IMG/VR virus record: IMGVR_UViG_2703718821_000011
Source: a virus
Lineage: Duplodnaviria; Heunggongvirae; Uroviricota; Caudoviricetes
Length of the DNA: 39,324 bases
Strand: one strand, 5' to 3'
The notes under the pieces were generated by a model, which saw nothing but the letters and a program-made list of their open reading frames with translations, had not been told where the DNA came from and did no database searches. Positions 1 through 39,324 of this stretch are shown piece after piece; position 1 is the first letter of the stretch, and every line of letters starts with the position of its first letter. The translations under genes and the position numbers were made by a program.

Positions 1-305
1 TCATGATGAACCTCGGCTAACAAAGTGTTCGCAAGCAGCTGCAAAGCGATCCAGTCCGGTCGTCACCTCTTCTTCGCTGACATTGAGCGCAGGCGCAAAA
101 CGCACCACGTTGCCACCCGCAATCAGTACCATCACGCCTGCTTTCGCCGCTTCCTGAGAGATCTGTTTCGCTTGCCCGGCGTAATCGGCATTCAGTACAC
201 AGCCAATCAGCAAACCTAAGCCGCGAACTTCACTGAACAAACCATAGCGGTGATTAATAGTATTAAGACGCTCAACAAACCAGTCGTGACGCTGTTTAAC
301 GCCAT
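1..305 (-). CDS. astC: Host succinylornithine/acetylornithine aminotransferase (AstC/ArgD family), 3' terminal ~100 codons only; gene interrupted by prophage insertion
   Basis: Minus-strand translation ends ...[96 protein letters not shown], which I recognise as the AstC C-terminus; similarity stops abruptly near nt 305 where phage-end sequence begins. Exact junction uncertain by a few bp. Confidence 0.7.
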
Positions 306-436
306 TAATATAGCGCGGCGATTTTTTTGATACCGATTTGCATTTCATTTGATACTGCTGAAAAACGCCGATACGCAACTTATTTGATACTAAATCGGCG
401 CTTTTCTTTTGAGTTTTAGAATGAGTTTTTAAGCGC
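306..436. repeat. Prophage right-end terminal region with three direct TTTGATAC repeats, candidate transposase end-binding sites
   Basis: TTTGATAC at ~326-333, ~348-355 and ~383-390, between the host junction and the mom stop codon; Mu-family ends carry multiple spaced transposase binding sites. Terminal dinucleotide could not be fixed. Confidence 0.45.
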
Positions 437-1174
437 TCATTCACTCTCTTTCAAACCAGTTTTAACTGTTTGTGGTTTTGGGTAAGGCTGGACTTTGAAT
501 AGCTTTGTGTTGAGGCGTTTTTTGGCCCTCTTGTTCAGAAACCGGATGTAACGAAACTGTCGGAACTTATGAACATTGGCTCTGTCAATATTAGCCCTCA
601 GATGTTCACCTCGTTGTCCGCCTCGTTTAATGGCATTCCTGCAAATCTCGTGATACCACTCGCCATCAAGTTCATAGAATATTGATTCATGGCTGCCTAC
701 ATAATCAAAATTGCTTGCCTGATACACGACACCAAGACAGCCACAACGCTCATCTGCAAACGACTGAACCCACTGTACCTGCGGATAAAGCTGCCTGATT
801 AGCTTGAGCGCGTAACTGATTGCCCTTGATTCGGAGTTTCTCGGCATACAGTCATGCAGCCATAGCCGGTTAAGCTCCATATATTCTCGGTTCTGCGTAC
901 CCGTTACGACGCGTGCACCACTGTTTGGGTTAAGGGCGTAACCCCATTGCATTACGCCAACAAGTTCCCGTTCTGAAAATATGCCCAGATGAAGGTAGGA
1001 GTTATTTACGAAACGGTGGCTGTAATGTTTATTGACGATGACCAGTCTGGCCAGCCAGCAACTTATTGTCTCAACCCGCAACTCACGGGAGCCATAACCA
1101 ACGATATTGTCGTTATAGCGAATAAGTTCAGGCGTGCTGATGATTCGGGATGTGACTTGCTTTCTGTTCCCCAC
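437..1174 (-). CDS. mom: Mom-like DNA modification protein (anti-restriction); true start may be internal to the ORF
   Basis: 245-aa ORF immediately downstream of and overlapping a Com homolog, last gene before the prophage end, exactly as in Mu. Assignment is by position and com linkage, not by recalled sequence identity. Confidence 0.6.
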
Positions 1175-1328
1175 GACAGGATTTCCTTGTGTATGTGGGG
1201 TGCTCTGTGGCGCTCGGAGATGTGATTTGATTGAGGGTTTTACAGCGCGGACATTTTACTTCCAGATAACTGAAACTGGCCCGTGCCAGTAGCTTATTGC
1301 AGTGTCGGCACCGTATGTTTCGATACAT
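1128..1328 (-). CDS. com: Com, zinc-finger translational activator of mom
   Basis: [30 protein letters not shown]... matches the Mu Com pattern (IRCKNCNKLL...IRCPRCK); overlaps the mom 5' end. ORF is open up to 1373, so a longer N-terminus is possible. Confidence 0.75.
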
Positions 1329-1369
1329 GGCCGCATAACCTCCTGCTTTGTTGTTGATGCCTTTCTCAT

Positions 1370-1550
1370 GCAATCGATCGACAAAAACGATCGATTCGAT
1401 TTGTTTAATTGATACAACAAATAGATTGAAAAGTCATCAACAATGATTCAGGTAGGTGATTATTTACTTAAAGAAAACGAAGAGTTAGGTGGTGAAAACG
1501 ATCATAAAATGATCATTTTATTGACTTTTTATATAGTGAAGGTAGGATCG
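1370..1550 (-). promoter_or_regulatory. Candidate mom operon control region: GATC (Dam) site cluster including a perfect 9-bp inverted repeat AATCGATCG-N7-CGATCGATT
   Basis: GATC at ~1376, ~1389, ~1500, ~1511, ~1546 in an AT-rich stretch just upstream of com. In Mu, Pmom is controlled by Dam methylation of upstream GATC sites (OxyR binding) and by C protein. Confidence 0.45.
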
Positions 1551-1914
1551 CGCGTATATGTAGTATGTTTCAAATCAATGGGATACTACATACATAAAGA
1601 GCGACCCAGATAGCGCGAACTATTCTGGGCCGATTTAGACAATTTTGCATCAATGCTTTACTTCGAGCTCGTGGCGTATCCTATGATATTCCCCAGTCTC
1701 CTGTAAAGCAGAGATGCATAAAAAGGAGATCTTTATCATGGATGAAAGAGCCTGTTTGCCCTGCCTGTAAGACTCCCTTACAGCTCATCTATCGCCGTTC
1801 TCGATCTCAAAATGGCAAGACATACAAACCCAAAAATGCTTCCTGTTTCAGGATGCTGATATGTCCTGCCTGTTCTCCCAGGAGGGAAAATACACAAAAC
1901 GTGCATTAACAAAC

Positions 1915-1947: not shown

Positions 1948-2193
1948 TTACATCATAGTACCGTCAGTTCCGGGCTGAACCGGCTCTGGTTGCTCTACGG
2001 GTTGAGGATCATTTTCCGTGCTGTTTTCAGCCGGAGAACGGCCAACCATTCGGGCCAGCACTTCATCAACATATGCGTCGATTTGTGCCTCAAAATCCTT
2101 GCGAACCTGCGCCTTCAGCACGCGGTTCACTTCTTCAGAATAAAGTGCCTGTTTGACAAGCTCTTCAGTAACCGTGCCTTTAATCTCTGGCAT
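1948..2193 (-). CDS. Hypothetical acidic 81-aa protein (cargo)
   Basis: Protein-like composition (MPEIKGTVTEELVKQALYSEEVNRVLKAQVRK...), AAGGAG Shine-Dalgarno about 7 nt upstream of the ATG. No recognisable domain. Confidence 0.55.
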   Translation of the reverse strand: MPEIKGTVTEELVKQALYSEEVNRVLKAQVRKDFEAQIDAYVDEVLARMVGRSPAENSTENDPQPVEQPEPVQPGTDGTMM

Positions 2194-2228
2194 GAATATT
2201 CTCCTTTTGCAGGTATATTGCCCCGTTA

Positions 2229-2411
2229 TCAGAGCGGGGTCGGGTCGTTTGGGGATGACGGTGCCTGTGCTGTTTTACTGAGTTTTTCAGCTGCCGCATC
2301 ATCAATTTTACGGCGAATATAATTTCTGATGACCTTATAACCGCCGCTCACCAGATATAACGCACTGACCACAGCGCAGAAATAAAGCAGCATTGTATGA
2401 ACGAATGTCAT
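2229..2411 (-). CDS. Hypothetical 60-aa small membrane protein (one N-terminal TM helix, basic juxtamembrane segment)
   Basis: MTFVHTMLLYFCAVVSALYLVSGGYKVIRNYIRRK...; AAGG-type RBS upstream; located in the cargo block. Confidence 0.5.
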   Translation of the reverse strand: MTFVHTMLLYFCAVVSALYLVSGGYKVIRNYIRRKIDDAAAEKLSKTAQAPSSPNDPTPL

Positions 2412-2523
2412 ATAACCTTACCTTTGATATTGACTACATAATTCGTTATCGGGTAAAAACATCGAAGCGACTGATAACCACTCCTTCGGGAGTATTTTTA
2501 TTTTCCTTTATGGGTTAGGTAGC

Positions 2524-2559
2524 TCCCGCCAGCCATATCATGACCGGCGGGATTTTTTT
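2524..2559 (+). terminator. Rho-independent terminator on the plus strand (GC stem TCCCGCC...GGCGGGA followed by T7)
   Basis: Stem-loop followed by TTTTTTT on the plus strand only; overlaps the stop codon of the minus-strand esterase gene. It would stop rightward transcription entering the esterase gene antisense. Confidence 0.55.
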
Positions 2560-4567
2560 ATTCTGTTACCGCTTTTTTCACTTCCACCACAATGCTGTCA
2601 ATCAGCACCGGGTAAGTTGCATTTTTGGTGATATCCGTTACGCGGAGTTTGTCCACCGGGAAAGTTCCTACTGGTGACTGCGTCAGGGTAAACGCGGCAC
2701 CATCCTGACCATCAATAACCGGAATAACCTGAAGGCTGTTATTTCCTGCAAAACGGAAGGCCAGCGTATGCCATTCATTATCAAATGCACCAAAGGTTCC
2801 CAGTTTCTGGTTATTTGTTGCCACTTTTGCATTGTGGTACATCACATTCAGGTCTTTTGCGTCTGTCTGGATGTAGAACGATGCCAGCAGATTATTCCCT
2901 GCATCCCCTGTCAGGGTGACACCCTGCGGCAGAGAGGAAACCGGCCAGTAAAGCGCCATGACATACTGGTTTGCCACCAGGTCGCCAGGTACTTTAAAAC
3001 GACAACTGATTAAACCACCATTTTTCAGCAGTTCAGCACCAGTACCGGCATCATGAGCCAGATACCAGGATGATTTACCTGTTTCCTTGGTCAGTTTCAT
3101 TGCCTTACCACCTGTGCCTCCTGCATCACTGATAATTTCAGCTTTACCGCCAGCCGGCTCCCAGCCCTGGGCTTTCAGATTTCCTTCTGACTCACTGACA
3201 CGGTAAGACAGCAGTGTTGTGGTTACTGCTTCAGTTTCAGAAGATGGAACATCGGCTTTTACTGTGGTTCGCCCTGCATGAGTCAGAACAGCCGTGGCCA
3301 GACGGTCAGAAATAATACCCCGGCGCGCCCAGGCACTGAAATGGCTGGCCCGGTCCGCAGATGTCCAGGTAGCGGCACTGTTACGCCACGTTGAGCCGTA
3401 ATAACCAATGGATTCAATATCCGGGTCTTCTGCCGGATTGTTGGTGGGTACATTCACGCCATTTTCATCTGTCATTAATGGAACGAAATGAATGTTTTTA
3501 TCTGTTTTGTTTTTGTAGCCGCCATAGATTGCCTGGTATGCTGGTTCATTTTTCTGTTTCCAGAAATACGTGGTATCGCCACAAATCCACGGAACGCCAG
3601 CAGCACTGCCACCGGTACACTGTTCCGCCTGTTCAGCCAGGTCTGCGCGGAATTTTTCCACCATCGCCAGAAACAGCGCAGAATGCTCCGTCGGCTTCGC
3701 ATCAATATCAAACTCGCCCTGCATCCACACCACAGCAAGCAGGCGGTTTTTCGGGTTCTTCGCCAGTGCCGCTTTTGTCCGGCTGATTAAGTCCTTATAC
3801 AGCGGCTTATCCACACCCCAGCGGGCTGAGTCCTCTGAAGCACCCGTGCTGTCACTGTACGTGCCGTCAGCACCCGCCGTGAATGCAGAACCACCACGGC
3901 AGCAGGGAACCAGCAGAATCCCCGCATCTGCCGGAATAAACGGCAGCAGTTTTTTGGCAATGTGAAGCCCCTGACCCACGGTGCCATATTGCCCTTTAGC
4001 CACATCCGCTTTCGGGTGATTTTTTCCACTCATATCCTGCACATCATGCAGACAGTGGTCGGCCAGAATGATGTCGTTATACTGACAGGCTTTACCTCCC
4101 GGCGTGACTGTACTGCGACGGGCTAACTGCATAATACGCGGTTCGGGGCGGTCATATGTCTCCGGCAGTGGCAGACCTTCACCGTAAGCCATACCGTTTG
4201 ACTGACCAGCAAGAACCACCACGTAATACCAGGAAGGGGAGCTGGAAGCAGTTTCATTTCCTGACGGACGGGTATGTGTTTCAGCATTATCCCAGTCTGA
4301 CGGTTCAGCAGTACCGGCAACATCAGCACTTAACGGAATGACCGCACCAATACCCGCTCCGGTAATTTCCACACTCGGATCACCGGATACTGGCCTTACC
4401 CACAGGCAATCCCGTGTATTAAAACTGATGAGACAGTCAGCAAATGTCATTCCTCCTTTTGTTTCGGCCGGAGGAAAGGGAGCCTCAAGAAATGCCGCTG
4501 TACCACCGGAAACTTTAACAGTAAAGTTTCCGGGCATTGATGATAGTTGAACCCATTTGGACGTCAT
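2558..4567 (-). CDS. Cargo protein: SASA/SGNH-family carbohydrate esterase (sialate O-acetylesterase-like) with an N-terminal ~110-aa domain and a C-terminal ~250-aa beta-rich domain
   Basis: Motifs VVVLAGQSNGMAYG (GQSN block with catalytic Ser) and VVWMQGEFD (WxQGExD block) are hallmarks of the SASA esterase family. No obvious signal peptide. Sits between gin and com-mom, where Mu has no gene. Confidence 0.65.
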   Translation of the reverse strand: MTSKWVQLSSMPGNFTVKVSGGTAAFLEAPFPPAETKGGMTFADCLISFNTRDCLWVRPVSGDPSVEITGAGIGAVIPLSADVAGTAEPSDWDNAETHTRPSGNETASSSPSWYYVVVLAGQSNGMAYGEGLPLPETYDRPEPRIMQLARRSTVTPGGKACQYNDIILADHCLHDVQDMSGKNHPKADVAKGQYGTVGQGLHIAKKLLPFIPADAGILLVPCCRGGSAFTAGADGTYSDSTGASEDSARWGVDKPLYKDLISRTKAALAKNPKNRLLAVVWMQGEFDIDAKPTEHSALFLAMVEKFRADLAEQAEQCTGGSAAGVPWICGDTTYFWKQKNEPAYQAIYGGYKNKTDKNIHFVPLMTDENGVNVPTNNPAEDPDIESIGYYGSTWRNSAATWTSADRASHFSAWARRGIISDRLATAVLTHAGRTTVKADVPSSETEAVTTTLLSYRVSESEGNLKAQGWEPAGGKAEIISDAGGTGGKAMKLTKETGKSSWYLAHDAGTGAELLKNGGLISCRFKVPGDLVANQYVMALYWPVSSLPQGVTLTGDAGNNLLASFYIQTDAKDLNVMYHNAKVATNNQKLGTFGAFDNEWHTLAFRFAGNNSLQVIPVIDGQDGAAFTLTQSPVGTFPVDKLRVTDITKNATYPVLIDSIVVEVKKAVTE

Positions 4568-4666: not shown

Positions 4667-5227
4667 TTATTTTTCCGAAACGCTCGCAGGATAATAACGA
4701 TAAAGGGTTGAAAGACCGATATCAAAAATAAGTGCCACCTGTCTTCGACTGACACCCCCGGCCAGTAAACGCCCGACCTGCTCGTATTGTTCCTGCGTGA
4801 GACGGCGGGGTCTGCCGCCGGTTCGTCCCCTTTCACGGGCAGCTGCAAGACCAGCCCGTGTCCGTTCGACAATTAATTCACGCTCCATTTCTGCCAGCGC
4901 ACCCATTATGTGAAAAAAGAAGCGCCCCATGGGGGTTGACGTATCAATGTTGTCAGTAAGACTACGAAAATTTATCCCCTGTTGCTGTAATTCATCTGTC
5001 AGCGCAACAAGGTGGCGCATACTGCGCCCCAGCCTGTCCAGTTTCCAGACCATCAGCGTGTCACCGGGTTTTAGTTTCTTCAGTGCCCGCTTCAGTCCCG
5101 GCCGCTGTGTCGTTTTACCACTCATTTTGTCTTCAAAAATCTGCTCACATCCTGCACATTCCAGCGCATTTCTTTGTAAACCGGTGTTCTGGTCATTTGT
5201 TGATACGCGTATATAGCCAATCAGCAT
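4667..5227 (-). CDS. gin: Gin/Hin/Pin-family serine recombinase (DNA invertase)
   Basis: MLIGYIRVSTNDQNTGLQ... N-terminal resolvase/invertase catalytic motif, C-terminal HTH; adjacent to the gix-flanked segment and transcribed away from it, as in Mu. Confidence 0.85.
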   Translation of the reverse strand: MLIGYIRVSTNDQNTGLQRNALECAGCEQIFEDKMSGKTTQRPGLKRALKKLKPGDTLMVWKLDRLGRSMRHLVALTDELQQQGINFRSLTDNIDTSTPMGRFFFHIMGALAEMERELIVERTRAGLAAARERGRTGGRPRRLTQEQYEQVGRLLAGGVSRRQVALIFDIGLSTLYRYYPASVSEK

Positions 5228-19502: not shown

Positions 19503-20626
19503 TATTGCATTTCCTCTTTCATTTTCAGGAACTCGGCTTCGGTTTTACCCAGCAGTTTGGCGGCCGCGATATCTTCAGCCGACAGCACAGCGGTGGCAGT
19601 CTTTTTATCCGGCACGGTCACGGTGTCGGTCTGAAGGCCGGTCAGGGCCGCAACCGGCTGGCGGGCGTCAAGCTGTGCAGAAAGTGCCGCCACGCCAATC
19701 TGCCCGCCCAGTTGTTCCAGATAGCCGCGTTCACTTTTGAAGATGCGTCCTTCGGACTCGGCCTTGTCCAGCAACTGCTCCAGCGTGGTGCTGCCGTGCT
19801 GCGCCGACAGCGCAACGTATTCGGTACGCAGGGCGTTATACGTTTCAACGGGCACGTATTTCGTCAGATCAATACTGCCGCCAGCCGGTGTGCCTTTTGC
19901 GGTTTCCAGCTCTGCCGACAGACTGGCGACCTGTGTTTTCAGGTTGTCGTGTGCATCCGCACGGGTTTTGATCCCGGTGAGGGCAGACAGCGCCGCCGTG
20001 CCCAGCTCCGGCGTAAATTCGTCACCGTCAGCCACGGTCAGACCGAGCGCCGTCAGCAACTGGCGTAATTGCTCATTCATGGAGGTATCCTTTAAAGGAG
20101 GGTTTAAGGCGTTATAAAGGTCATCCGCCGACAGTGCGGCGACAGGATTCATGCCGGTCAGACCGGGGTCACCGGTAATAGCCAGCATCCGAAGTTCGAC
20201 AGGTTCGCCGGTGCTCTCGTCATAGCCAATCACCGGTGAAAACCAGGGGAATTCGTTATTACGCAGATGTTCAAGGGCCGGAGGGTTCCACTTCGGGCGC
20301 ACCTCGAAACCTCGCTCTTCACTGAAGCGAAAATTCTCCGGTGAGGCCATCACAAAACCGGCAGCCGGTGCCGGATGTCCCTCAATCAGGGTCTGGTGGT
20401 TGTAGTCAATTTTCACCGGCTGATTGAGCGCCACAACACGGGAGACCATGCGCTCAACGGCTGCATGGTTGATCAGCCAGCCCTCGGCCGGTTTTTCCGG
20501 GCGACCGTCACGGGCCTTTACCCGACCGGCTGGCATGATCTGACACCAGTCACCGTCCCCGTCTGCGGACAGGCTGATGGCATTCAGAATGGCATAAGCA
20601 AGTTTGGGCGTGTTTTTCGTCTTCAT
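19502..20626 (-). CDS. Head maturation protease / scaffold (Mu gp32, I; a nested scaffold Z-like product is possible)
   Basis: 374 aa, Ala-rich coiled-coil C-terminal half, directly upstream of the capsid gene. Confidence 0.75.
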   Translation of the reverse strand: MKTKNTPKLAYAILNAISLSADGDGDWCQIMPAGRVKARDGRPEKPAEGWLINHAAVERMVSRVVALNQPVKIDYNHQTLIEGHPAPAAGFVMASPENFRFSEERGFEVRPKWNPPALEHLRNNEFPWFSPVIGYDESTGEPVELRMLAITGDPGLTGMNPVAALSADDLYNALNPPLKDTSMNEQLRQLLTALGLTVADGDEFTPELGTAALSALTGIKTRADAHDNLKTQVASLSAELETAKGTPAGGSIDLTKYVPVETYNALRTEYVALSAQHGSTTLEQLLDKAESEGRIFKSERGYLEQLGGQIGVAALSAQLDARQPVAALTGLQTDTVTVPDKKTATAVLSAEDIAAAKLLGKTEAEFLKMKEEMQ

Positions 20627-20802
20627 TCCGGCAGCATAGGCCGGGAATTTTCAGGGCGGGTTTTGCGGGATTTCAGGAAGTGCTTTCAGGGGAAAAATAC
20701 AAAGGCGCTTCACGCAGATTTTAAAGCCCGTTAAATTCAGGTTAGAAAATCACGACACGCGCCTGAAGGGGGTAAGGTAATGCATTTGCATACCTTAAAC
20801 AA
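20627..20802 (-). promoter_or_regulatory. Intergenic region upstream of the protease gene with a TAAGGTA-N11-TACCTTA inverted repeat; candidate late (C-dependent) promoter
   Basis: 176-bp non-coding gap in an otherwise tightly packed late region; Mu has a late promoter upstream of I. Confidence 0.3.
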
Positions 20803-28528: not shown

Positions 28529-28599
28529 TGTTACGCTGTCTCATGATGTTCTCTGAGTCAGCGTAACGGTGAAGGAAAGGCGGCAGGCTTTGCGGAATA

Positions 28600-29025
28600 T
28601 CAGAAAAGTGGCGGTTGCGTTCTTGCCAGATGCAGACGGCGCTGTTCACGTATGACGGTATAAATCTGGGTTTCTGACATCCGGTAATGGCGGCGAAGGG
28701 ATTCAATTTTCTCGCCCCGGTCCCAGCGCGAAAATATCTCATTGTTTCGCAGCTCGGCAAAGAGAGATTCCCCGACCGGCAGGTAATAACCCCGTCCGCC
28801 CATATAGGCTGCCTGAGCCGCAGCCACCTTGCGTGCCAGTTTACCGGCCAGTACCGGCTCAATCCCCTGACGCTGAAGTTCTGCGCCGGTGACTTCAACC
28901 AGTTCTGACAGGGTCCGCGGCCAGTTCTTTTTGAGAACATCATCAGGGATGTCATCAAGGCGGTCGATAAGGGCGTGCAGTTGCTCACTGTCACCACCAA
29001 ACATGCTCATCTGAGTTTCTGCCAT
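28600..29025 (-). CDS. Mor/C-family transcriptional activator (middle/late gene activator)
   Basis: C-terminal ...RMSETQIYTVIREQRRL... resembles the Mor/C HTH region; sits immediately upstream of lys where Mu has C. Cannot tell whether this is the Mor or the C equivalent. Confidence 0.65.
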   Translation of the reverse strand: MAETQMSMFGGDSEQLHALIDRLDDIPDDVLKKNWPRTLSELVEVTGAELQRQGIEPVLAGKLARKVAAAQAAYMGGRGYYLPVGESLFAELRNNEIFSRWDRGEKIESLRRHYRMSETQIYTVIREQRRLHLARTQPPLF

Positions 29026-38739: not shown

Positions 38740-39324
38740 ATGAACATGAAAAACAGTTCTTTTCTCGACGAAGGAAAAGAACCAGTGATCGAACGGATTT
38801 TTCGTCTTGCAGAGCGTTACAAATCGAGAAGTGAGGCGGCTAGAGCATGGGGAATAAACGTTCAGACATTGCAGAACTACTACAAAAGGAGAAACAATCA
38901 GCCGCCACCACAACCAAGAAAGCACCATCTCCAGAACATTGCAGAAAGAGAACATGTATCTATGGAGTGGCTAGTCCATGGTTATGGTGATGAGCCAAGC
39001 ATGAAAAAAGAACCAATTGAACAAGCAAAAAGAACAAAAAAACAAAGAATTGATGATAGTGATTCCATCATCATGAGGGCGTGGGACTCGCTAACTTCAT
39101 CTGAACAAGAGATTTTGTCCAACTTATTGATCAGAAAAGGGGCCGAACTACTAACCGTTTTGCTTGATACAGATATTCAAAAACTGCACTCATTGAGCGG
39201 AGTCAAAAGAGCACTAGCATTGAGTCTACAAGAGTTACCCGATGATACTGTAAGAGAGATTTATGAAGAATGTGAAGCTAAGGTTAATCATTTAAATGTA
39301 ACCCAGAAAAAGGCTAGTGCGTAA
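38740..39324 (+). CDS. c: Mu c-type lysogeny repressor
   Basis: Divergent from ner; C-terminal ...LLIRKGAELLTVLL...QKLHSLSGV...LPDDTVREIY resembles the Mu repressor C-terminal region; AAGGA RBS before the ATG at 38740. Stop codon is the last triplet of the window. Confidence 0.65.
   Translation: MNMKNSSFLDEGKEPVIERIFRLAERYKSRSEAARAWGINVQTLQNYYKRRNNQPPPQPRKHHLQNIAEREHVSMEWLVHGYGDEPSMKKEPIEQAKRTKKQRIDDSDSIIMRAWDSLTSSEQEILSNLLIRKGAELLTVLLDTDIQKLHSLSGVKRALALSLQELPDDTVREIYEECEAKVNHLNVTQKKASA

What the first reader, a model, noticed from the sequence alone, without database searches (positions are those of the whole stretch)
1370..1550. Dense GATC cluster with perfect palindrome upstream of com-mom
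Five GATC sites lie within ~180 bp, two of them inside the perfect inverted repeat AATCGATCG-N7-CGATCGATT (~1372-1396) at the 5' edge of the com reading frame. This fits Dam-methylation control of the mom operon as in Mu, but the palindromic arrangement is not the Mu arrangement I remember, so the binding protein may differ.
Basis: partly seen in the sequence, partly recalled or inferred. Interest (0 to 1): 0.45.

Follow-up and report, generated by a model that had tools for sequence, protein, structure and literature searches.

The report
Dam/OxyR-type operator upstream of com-mom
The palindrome with two GATC sites in front of the com-mom genes of this Mu-like prophage is the same methylation-sensitive OxyR-type operator already known from phage Mu, E. 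coli agn43 and phage P22 gtr. It is an ordinary relative of a known switch, placed closer to the genes than in Mu; the other three GATC sites belong to a separate, variable neighbouring segment.

Summary
The five GATCs (1376, 1389, 1500, 1511, 1546) and the perfect palindrome AATCGATCG-N7-CGATCGATT (1372-1396) are real. The five-site density alone is not beyond chance (P about 0.22), and the sites form two unrelated groups.

The pair in the palindrome, 13 bp apart, is kept in every Sp18-type relative examined. It matches Mu GATC sites 2 and 3 with one mismatch, has the same 8-bp arms as the agn43 OxyR site, and shares the GATCG-N7-CGATC core of the P22 gtr OxyR half-sites. A second OxyR-like half-site lies 31 bp upstream (1408-1422), as in Mu, agn43 and gtr. 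So the arrangement is the Mu arrangement, and OxyR, not a new protein, is the likely binder.

The context does differ. Mu's GATC site 1 and its C-activator box are absent. The operator is 27 bp nearer com (51 versus 78 bp), so it must overlap the promoter. The best candidate promoter puts the GATCs at about -45 and -32, the gtr geometry.

The three upstream GATCs sit in a variable accessory segment, around a conserved opposite-strand promoter and a second palindrome. No binding or expression was tested.

The parts
1372..1396 (.). Perfect palindrome AATCGATCG-N7-CGATCGATT holding GATC 1376-1379 and 1389-1392, 13 bp apart start to start. This is the core of the operator.
   Evidence: Both GATCs are kept in all 19 Sp18-type haplotypes; L047 changes one outer arm base. 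The arms are identical to the agn43 site. One mismatch to Mu sites 2 and 3.
1377..1391 (-). Proximal OxyR-like half-site ATCGTTTTTGTCGAT, matching 7 of 10 positions of ATAGnTnnnAnCTAT, with a GATC overlapping each end.
   Evidence: Mu scores 7/10; agn43 and both gtr sites score 8/10 on the same measure.
1408..1422 (-). Distal OxyR-like half-site ATTTGTTGTATCAAT (7/10), without GATC, 31 bp centre to centre from the proximal one.
   Evidence: This is the only place in the window with two half-sites of at least 7/10 spaced 31-32 bp apart. A half-site at -31 or -32 is also present in agn43, gtr, Mu and most other com-mom lineages.
1354..1384 (-). Candidate com-mom promoter TTGTCG (1384-1379), 19-bp spacer, CATCAA (1359-1354). 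The inferred start near 1347 puts the GATCs at about -45 and -32.
   Evidence: 7 of 12. Relatives have TATCAT or TATCAA at the same place (for example L006, L007, L029, L035). Inferred, not mapped.
1409..1437 (-). Alternative or second candidate promoter ATGACT, 17-bp spacer, TATCAA. The operator would then lie over its -10 and at about +11 to +25.
   Evidence: 8 of 12. Homology with JE86-type relatives begins at this -35-like hexamer, which reads ATGACA there. Inferred.
1128..1328 (-). com gene (66 aa zinc-ribbon protein); ribosome-binding site AGGAGG at 1339-1344.
   Evidence: 47% identical to Mu Com; 65% to phage Chuche Com.
437..1174 (-). mom gene, overlapping the end of com.
   Evidence: Pfam Mom E=2.6e-77. 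79% identical to Mu Mom.
1500..1549 (+). Second GATC group (1500, 1511, 1546). It includes the 18-bp perfect palindrome ATAAAATGATCATTTTAT (1504-1521) and a sigma-70-like promoter TTGACT-N16-TAGGAT (1521-1548) that points away from com. Not part of the conserved com-mom cassette.
   Evidence: The promoter is kept as TTGACT-N16-TACGAT in strain M18. The segment is replaced in JE86-type relatives.

Best explanation
The palindrome at 1372-1396 is the proximal half of a Dam-methylation-sensitive OxyR-type operator for the com-mom operon.

Proposed mechanism:
1. When GATC 1376 and 1389 are unmethylated, the host LysR-type regulator OxyR, a dimer of dimers, binds the proximal half-site (1377-1391) together with a GATC-free distal half-site 31 bp upstream (1408-1422). 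This shuts off com-mom transcription.
2. When Dam has methylated both GATCs, OxyR cannot bind and the promoter is free.

Difference from Mu: in Mu the operator lies upstream of the C-activator box. Here it is 27 bp closer to com, so it must overlap the core promoter. The most likely promoter is TTGTCG-N19-CATCAA, with a start near 1347 and the GATCs at about -45 and -32. That would make repression direct occlusion of the -35 region, as at the OxyR(BC) site of P22 gtr.

Shown here: the sequence features, their conservation, and their identity with characterised sites. Inferred: OxyR binding, sensitivity to methylation, the position of the promoter, and the direction of the effect.

The three GATCs at 1500-1549 are a separate matter. 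They lie around a conserved opposite-strand promoter in a variable accessory segment.
For: 1. Identity with known sites. Mu sites 2 and 3 read AATCGATCG-N7-AGATCGATT. agn43 reads ATCGATCG-TTTATAT-CGATCGAT. P22 gtr reads TTGATCG-N7-CGATCAA twice. In gtr each such 13-bp GATC pair lies inside one OxyR half-site, and Dam methylation abolishes OxyR binding (PMC2909390).
2. OxyR consensus. The top matches in the window to the 37-bp OxyR consensus (14/20 at 1408-1444, then 13/20) fall at 1377-1444; the only other 13/20 site is at 38949-38985.
3. Half-site geometry. A distal half-site lies 31-32 bp from the GATC-pair dyad in agn43 (8/10), gtr (10/10), Mu (7/10), this window (7/10) and most other com-mom lineages. 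The window has only one such pair of half-sites.
4. Conservation. The 13-bp GATC pair is kept upstream of com in Mu-type, Sp18-type, P2-like (Chuche) and Edwardsiella lineages. In some of these the inner arm base is no longer complementary, so the GATC positions are what is kept, not hairpin potential.
5. Association. 30 of 59 exact occurrences of ATCGATCG-N7-CGATCGAT in IMG/VR are next to com/mom.
6. Overlap with the promoter. Only 47 bp separate the last GATC from the com ATG. In Mu 74 bp hold the annotated 67-bp promoter. In the Chuche family, which has the same 51-bp distance, a conserved TGnTATCAT lies 12-17 nt after the last GATC and a terminator lies just upstream. Sp18-type relatives have TATCAT or TATCAA 21-26 nt after the last GATC.
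Against: - No binding, methylation or expression data exist for this phage, and none were found in the literature searched.
- The OxyR consensus is AT-rich and so is this region (31% GC against 53% for the window). A half-site of at least 7/10 occurs at 1.4% of local positions, so the distal half-site alone is only modestly significant.
- The -10 element in this particular window (CATCAA) is weak, and a second candidate promoter lies upstream. The position of the operator relative to the start site is therefore unresolved.
- No copy of the box shared by this phage's own lys and I late promoters lies upstream of com, so how the operon is switched on is unknown.
- The primary papers on the Mu OxyR footprint could not be read.
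Confidence: 0.72

Rival explanations
1. The palindrome is the operator of a different dimeric DNA-binding protein, phage-encoded or host, and not of OxyR.
For: The repeat is a perfect 9-bp inverted repeat, more symmetrical than the Mu copy. The Mu C box is absent, so something else might control the promoter.
Against: The arms are identical to the agn43 OxyR site and one base from the Mu copy. The same motif travels with com in unrelated phage backbones, Mu-like and P2-like, which argues for a host factor common to enterobacteria. The phage's own late promoters do not carry it.
Confidence: 0.07
2. Dam methylation acts directly, without OxyR. Methyl groups in the -35 or spacer DNA change RNA polymerase binding, or SeqA sequesters the hemimethylated GATC pair after replication.
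For: If the promoter is TTGTCG-N19-CATCAA, one GATC abuts the -35 hexamer and the other lies 7 bp upstream of it. GATC pairs about one helical turn apart are good SeqA targets (general knowledge, not tested here).
Against: This does not explain the conserved GATC-free distal half-site at 31-32 bp, nor the match to three characterised OxyR sites. It may well operate in addition to OxyR.
Confidence: 0.1
3. The palindrome works as RNA: a 5'-leader hairpin of a transcript that starts near 1402, or a terminator for the plus strand.
For: The pattern scan flags it as terminator-like on the plus strand. An upstream candidate promoter would transcribe it. The minimum-free-energy fold contains the hairpin.
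Against: The fold is not more stable than shuffles (z = -1.17). In other lineages the GATCs are kept but arm complementarity is not, for example GATCA...CGATC. There is no T-run on the com strand. No Rfam match was found.
Confidence: 0.03
4. The GATC clustering is chance or compositional and has no regulatory role.
For: Five GATCs in 170 bp arises in 22% of random placements. The three upstream sites lie in a variable segment.
Against: For the pair in the palindrome this is contradicted by conservation across distant lineages and identity with known operators. For the upstream trio it remains possible.
Confidence: 0.05

Closest known systems
Phage Mu mom regulatory region (three GATC sites bound by OxyR when unmethylated; C-activated momP1)
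   Same: A com-mom operon with overlapping genes. AATCGATCG-N7-NGATCGATT with 13-bp GATC spacing, equal to Mu sites 2 and 3. The shared ATCAATTAAA motif upstream. A distal OxyR-like half-site 31 bp from the dyad.
   Different: No GATC site 1, which lies 18 bp upstream in Mu. No TTAT-N6-ATAA C box, no T6 spacer and no TAAGAT -10. The last GATC is 51 bp, not 78 bp, from the com ATG, so the operator overlaps the promoter instead of lying upstream of it. Com is only 47% identical to Mu Com, while Mom is 79% identical.
Salmonella phage P22 gtr regulatory region, OxyR(BC) site (PMC2909390)
   Same: Two GATCs 13 bp apart inside one OxyR half-site with a GATCG-N7-CGATC core. A GATC-free partner half-site 31-32 bp upstream. 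With the favoured promoter the GATCs fall at about -45 and -32, against -46 and -33 in gtr.
   Different: gtr has a third half-site (A), with two more GATCs, that gives the ON state and phase variation. No such upstream GATC-pair half-site is seen here. The gene controlled and the phage type differ. The promoter position here is inferred, not mapped.
E. coli agn43 (flu) Dam/OxyR phase-variation switch
   Same: Identical 8-bp arms and a 7-bp T-rich spacer (ATCGATCG-TTTATAT-CGATCGAT against ATCGATCG-TTTTTGT-CGATCGAT). OxyR-like half-sites at -22 and -32.
   Different: agn43 has a third GATC 19 bp upstream. Its operator begins at the annotated 5' end of the IsrC RNA, that is, at or just downstream of the start site. 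The gene controlled is chromosomal.
com-mom cassette of P2-like phage Chuche and relatives
   Same: The same 51-bp distance from the last GATC to the com ATG. The same GATC-N9-GATC dyad. Com is 65% identical.
   Different: The Chuche type keeps three GATCs (18 + 13) and has a clear extended -10 (TGnTATCAT) 12-17 nt after the last GATC. Its Mom-position protein is only 27% identical.

Membership tests
Mu-type Pmom regulatory region | com and mom as one operon with overlapping reading frames at the phage right end | tested here: met
   com 1328-1128 and mom 1174-437 overlap, on the minus strand, next to the prophage end.
Mu-type Pmom regulatory region | GATC sites 2 and 3 as a dyad, 13 bp apart | tested here: met
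   Window AATCGATCG-N7-CGATCGATT against Mu AATCGATCG-N7-AGATCGATT.
Mu-type Pmom regulatory region | A third GATC (site 1) 18 bp upstream of site 2 | tested here: not met
   The window has AATT at that position. The next GATC upstream is 108 bp away, in a non-conserved segment.
Mu-type Pmom regulatory region | C-activator box (TTAT-N6-ATAA), T6-containing 19-bp spacer and TAAGAT -10 between the GATC cluster and com | tested here: not met
   Only 47 bp separate the last GATC from the ATG, against 74 bp in Mu. There is no TTAT-N6-ATAA. There is no copy of this phage's own late-promoter box CTGAWATYCCGCAAARCCYGCC.
Mu-type Pmom regulatory region | Transcription depends on Dam and is repressed by OxyR in dam hosts | not testable with these tools
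   Needs reporter fusions in dam and oxyR hosts.
Dam-sensitive OxyR operators (agn43, gtr, mom) | An OxyR half-site (ATAGnTnnnAnCTAT-like) whose two arms each carry a GATC, with core GATCG-N7-CGATC | tested here: met
   ATCGTTTTTGTCGAT scores 7/10. agn43 and gtr score 8/10 and Mu 7/10.
Dam-sensitive OxyR operators (agn43, gtr, mom) | A second half-site at the spacing used by an OxyR tetramer (22 bp, or about 32 bp in the extended form) | tested here: met
   ATTTGTTGTATCAAT scores 7/10 at 31 bp, and a 6/10 site lies at 22 bp. This is the only such pair in the window. Local AT-richness weakens the statistics.
Dam-sensitive OxyR operators (agn43, gtr, mom) | The operator overlaps the promoter or start site, so that bound OxyR blocks RNA polymerase | tested here: inconclusive
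   Both candidate promoters are overlapped, and the geometry argument is strong. The start site is not mapped.
Dam-sensitive OxyR operators (agn43, gtr, mom) | OxyR binding is abolished by GATC methylation; heritable ON/OFF methylation patterns | not testable with these tools
   Needs gel-shift or footprinting assays and methylation-state assays.

The most novel reading that the evidence does not exclude
In Sp18-type prophages, and in the P2-like Chuche family, the com-mom cassette may have lost the Mu late-activator wiring. It would be built like the gtr/agn43 switches instead: an OxyR/Dam operator directly over the -35 region of an activator-independent promoter. Mom, a DNA adenine-modifying anti-restriction enzyme that is toxic when mis-expressed, could then be switched on in a heritable, phase-variable subpopulation of lysogens, not only late in lytic growth. 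The natural variants that have deleted the whole GATC cluster but kept the -10 (L184, L192) would be constitutively de-repressed.
Probability: 0.1. Interest if true: 0.6.

Novelty: new member of a known kind. Interest (0 to 1): 0.27.

Why it matters
The finding mainly removes a suspected novelty: the palindrome is the classical Dam/OxyR operator, not a site for a new protein.

The modest added value is comparative.
- The GATCG-N7-CGATC dyad, with a partner half-site 31-32 bp away, is a portable module. It travels with com across Mu-like and P2-like phages and matches the modules of agn43 and gtr.
- It occurs in two promoter contexts: upstream of a C box (Mu type, 76-78 bp from com) or over the core promoter (51-57 bp; Sp18, Chuche and others).

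For the O157-type Mu-like prophages this predicts that the toxic mom function is gated by host Dam and OxyR in a gtr-like geometry. That can be tested with simple reporter fusions, or by looking for non-methylated GATCs at this position in existing long-read methylomes.

Tried and rejected
- Statistics of the five-site cluster alone: not significant (P about 0.22).
- Rfam search of 1-2600 at E up to 1: only noise.
- RNA folding of the putative leader: not better than shuffles.
- Search for a Mu-type C box, or for this phage's own late-promoter box, upstream of com. The window's lys and I promoters share CTGAWATYCCGCAAARCCYGCC...TAYGCT, but nothing similar lies near com.
- Treating ECs_4996 (154 aa in Sakai, 1443 to 1909 here) as a real gene that would make the three upstream GATCs coding. 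Doubtful, because the ORF from that ATG ranges from 14 to 154 aa among 19 close haplotypes and has only a PHROG of unknown function.
- A Fur-box reading of the 18-bp palindrome: compared by eye only and rejected, because the half-sites are 3 bp too close.
- The minus-strand promoter hit at 1707-1678: not conserved in M18 or JE86.
- The primary papers on the Mu OxyR footprint (PMC401183, PMC147061) are not held. The extent of the Mu footprint therefore rests on the annotation and on secondary citation.
- No paper on the Sp18 mom promoter was found.
- More distant Mom relatives (43-55% identical to Chuche Mom) showed no recognisable com with my simple pattern, so their upstream regions were not analysed.

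Full report
**Context.** The window holds a Mu-like prophage in reverse orientation.
- Homologues of Mu C, Lys, I, T, L, Gin, Com and Mom are all on the minus strand, in Mu order.
- mom is 437-1174 (Pfam Mom E=2.6e-77). com is the zinc-ribbon ORF ending at 1128 (Pfam Com E=3.2e-12).
- The region 1300-1760 is identical to E. coli O157:H7 chromosomes and 94.6% identical to prophage Sp18 of strain Sakai. It is present in 233 of 5426 complete E. coli genomes.
- In an identical RefSeq sequence com is annotated from the ATG that corresponds to window 1328. This agrees with the Pfam match beginning at residue 16 of the longest ORF and with an AGGAGG at 1339-1344.

**The observation.**
- GATC occurs at 1376, 1389, 1500, 1511 and 1546. 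AATCGATCG-N7-CGATCGATT is a perfect inverted repeat at 1372-1396.
- The palindrome lies 44-68 bp upstream of the real com start, not at the edge of the gene.
- Five GATCs in 170 bp is the densest run in the window, but 22% of random placements of 128 sites give one as dense.
- Structure is the better signal. The window has 7 distinct perfect inverted repeats with arms of at least 9 and a spacer of at most 10, against about 1.9 expected. Two are here, both carrying GATC.

**Two groups of sites, not one cluster.** I aligned the window with Sakai Sp18, strain M18 (76% identical upstream) and strain JE86 (unrelated upstream segment).
- Homology common to all four runs from about 1437 to com and includes the whole palindrome.
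- The segment that carries GATC 1500, 1511 and 1546 is partly changed in M18 and replaced in JE86.
- Among 19 distinct Sp18-type upstream haplotypes, both palindrome GATCs are always present. The upstream trio is present only where that accessory segment is present, and individual sites are sometimes lost.

**Comparison with Mu.**
- The Mu sequence upstream of com reads cGATCGAATCAATTAAATCGATCGGTAATACAGATCGATTATGCCCCAATAACC...TTTTTTAAGAT...ATG.
- Mu sites 2 and 3 therefore form AATCGATCG-N7-AGATCGATT. This has the same arms and the same 13-bp spacing as the window, with one mismatch.

**Comparison with other Dam/OxyR switches.**
- The E. coli K-12 agn43 regulatory region contains ATCGATCG-TTTATAT-CGATCGAT, that is, identical 8-bp arms and a 7-bp T-rich spacer.
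- The P22 gtr region contains TTGATCG-N7-CGATCAA twice, separated by ATAGATAAAAACTAT, with 32 bp between half-site centres.
- For gtr it was shown experimentally that each 13-bp GATC pair lies inside one OxyR-dimer half-site, and that Dam methylation of the pairs abolishes OxyR binding. The pair at -46/-33 lies in half-site C of the OxyR(BC) site, which overlaps the promoter; a construct with only the promoter and OxyR(BC) gave uniformly low expression. The same paper notes that Dam and OxyR also control Mu mom (PMC2909390).

**Fit to the OxyR consensus.**
- Scoring the 37-bp OxyR consensus over both strands of the whole window puts the top matches at 1377-1444: 14/20 at 1408-1444, then 13/20. 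The only other 13/20 site is at 38949-38985.
- The proximal half-site ATCGTTTTTGTCGAT (1377-1391) matches 7 of 10 consensus positions. The Mu site also scores 7. agn43 and both gtr sites score 8.
- A distal half-site lies 31-32 bp from the dyad centre in agn43 (8/10), gtr (10/10), Mu (7/10), this window (ATTTGTTGTATCAAT, 1408-1422, 7/10), Chuche (7/10) and most other com-mom lineages examined.
- In the whole window there is exactly one place with two half-sites of at least 7/10 spaced 31-32 bp apart, and it is this one.
- Caveat: the consensus and the region are both AT-rich. Locally 1.4% of positions reach 7/10.

**Distribution among com-mom loci.** I collected com-mom loci from species genomes and IMG/VR and located com in each. 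Anchoring on the GATC-N9-GATC pair gave 35 distinct upstream sequences.
- Mu-type loci have GATC spacings of 18 + 13, followed by a C box (TTAT-N6-ATAA or CCATAAYCC). The last GATC is 76-78 bp from the ATG.
- A second class has the last GATC only 51-57 bp from the ATG. It comprises the Sp18 type (this window), the P2-like phage Chuche and its family, and L009 (Edwardsiella) and L048-L050.
- Some lineages have a distal GATC 31 bp, not 18 bp, upstream (L009, L049, L050, L061). The window has the same spacing framework, including the ATCAATTAA motif 21 bp before the pair as in L061, but no GATC at the distal position.
- In several lineages the inner arm base is not complementary (GATCA...CGATC) while both GATCs are kept. 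This argues for a DNA-level, methylation-related constraint and against a hairpin.
- The exact 23-bp motif ATCGATCG-N7-CGATCGAT occurs in 59 IMG/VR contigs, 30 of them next to com/mom.

**Where the promoter is.**
- In Mu the annotated 67-bp late promoter fills the 74 bp between site 3 and com. Here only 47 bp are available, so the operator cannot lie wholly upstream of the promoter.
- In the Chuche family a terminator lies just upstream of the GATC cluster, and a conserved TG(T/C)TATCAT lies 12-17 nt after the last GATC. There the dyad covers the -35 and spacer region. Two natural variants (L184, L192) have deleted the whole cluster but kept that -10.
- In Sp18-type relatives TATCAT or TATCAA lies 21-26 nt after the last GATC. 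This window and Sakai have the weaker CATCAA.
- With TTGTCG (1384-1379) and a 19-bp spacer this gives a 7/12 promoter here and 9/12 in M18. The inferred start near 1347 puts the GATCs at about -45 and -32, essentially the gtr positions of -46 and -33.
- A second candidate, ATGACT-N17-TATCAA (1437-1409, 8/12), is also conserved, and homology with JE86 begins at its -35. The operator would then cover its -10 and the early transcribed region, as in agn43.
- Either way the operator overlaps the promoter. Which promoter is used is not settled.

**Activation.**
- The window's C homologue (28600-29025) is 39% identical to Mu C.
- The regions upstream of its lys and I genes share CTGAWATYCCGCAAARCCYGCC followed 16 nt later by TAYGCT. 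Nothing like this lies upstream of com.
- Whether com-mom here is still a C-dependent late operon is therefore unknown.
- Com is closer to Chuche Com (65%) than to Mu Com (47%). Mom is closer to Mu Mom (79%) than to the Chuche protein (27%). The com gene and its regulatory region thus appear to be of the short-class type, joined to a Mu-type mom.

**The upstream trio.**
- On the plus strand TTGACT-N16-TAGGAT (1521-1548) is one of only two sigma-70-like hits in 1250-2000. It is kept as TTGACT-N16-TACGAT in M18 despite 76% overall identity.
- GATC 1546 overlaps the end of its -10. The 18-bp palindrome centred on GATC 1511 abuts its -35.
- The ORF annotated there in Sakai (ECs_4996, 154 aa) is called frameshifted in RefSeq for this sequence. 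It ranges from 14 to 154 aa among close relatives, so it is probably not a conserved coding gene.
- What this promoter makes is unknown. Rfam gives nothing.

**Verdict.** The palindrome is real and functional-looking, and it is explained by a known mechanism: the Dam-sensitive OxyR operator of mom. It appears here in a two-GATC, promoter-overlapping arrangement that resembles P22 gtr OxyR(BC). The suspicion of a different binding protein is not supported. All functional statements are inferences from sequence identity and conservation.

Noticed in passing
window 1504-1548 (+): An 18-bp perfect palindrome ATAAAATGATCATTTTAT centred on a GATC abuts the -35 of a sigma-70-like promoter TTGACT-N16-TAGGAT, whose -10 end overlaps another GATC. 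The promoter points away from com and is conserved (TACGAT) in a 76%-identical relative. It may be a second Dam-sensitive promoter.
   Followed up: partly
window 1556-1640 (+): Downstream of that promoter lie two hairpins, TATGTAGTAT...ATACTACATA and CCCAGATAG...CTATTCTGGG, followed by a T-rich tail. This could be a small RNA of about 80-90 nt. There is no Rfam match at E up to 1. The first hairpin is deleted in strain M18.
   Followed up: partly
window 1443-1909 (+): The ORF annotated as ECs_4996 in Sakai (154 aa) is frameshifted here, and its length ranges from 14 to 154 aa among 19 close haplotypes. It is probably not a real conserved gene. Its last 55 codons (1742-1909) form a CxxC...CxxC mini-ORF.
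   Followed up: partly
window 1948-4567 (-): Between gin (4667-5227) and com lie three cargo genes that have no counterpart in the Mu gin-com interval: a 669-aa DUF6645 protein with a sialate O-acetylesterase-like (SASA) domain, a DUF1378 protein and a DUF826 protein.
   Followed up: no
window 28540-28610 and 20610-20680 (-): The putative late promoters upstream of the lys and I homologues share a 22-bp box, CTGAWATYCCGCAAARCCYGCC, placed 16 nt before TAYGCT. This is a candidate binding site for this phage's C homologue and differs from the Mu C box.
   Followed up: partly
L184 and L192 (IMG/VR, Chuche-type phages), about 60-100 bp upstream of com: Natural variants in which the entire three-GATC cluster is deleted (ACAAATCAATTTGTTATCAT), while the extended -10 and com are kept. 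These would be operator-less com-mom cassettes.
   Followed up: no
L110, L115, L123, L128, L129, L145, L150 (IMG/VR contigs without mom): The same ATCGATCG-N7-CGATCGAT dyad, with a third GATC about 19-20 bp away (the agn43 pattern), occurs in other phage contigs. In L123 the ORF downstream resembles a family-25 glycosyltransferase, and in L150 the adjacent ORF resembles a Dam-type methyltransferase; both calls were made by eye from the translations, not by a family search. These are probably further phage-borne Dam/OxyR switches.
   Followed up: partly
window 437-1328 compared with L001 and L003: Mosaic cassette. Com is 65% identical to the P2-like Chuche Com but 47% to Mu Com. Mom is 79% identical to Mu Mom but 27% to the Chuche protein.
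   Followed up: partly
window 1-440: The prophage right end, with repeated TTTGATAC motifs at about 327-400, abuts the 3' part of a host gene whose product ends ...[15 protein letters not shown]...FVSRGSS. By eye this looks like an aminotransferase, so the phage has probably inserted into a host gene. Other copies of this phage sit at different chromosomal sites: next to flgG, within sorM, and adjacent to citF.
   Followed up: no
window 4506-4533: A 28-bp perfect inverted repeat, CCGGAAACTTTAACAGTAAAGTTTCCGG, lies downstream of gin and inside the start of the 669-aa ORF. Its role was not examined; it may be a terminator or a recombination-related site.
   Followed up: no
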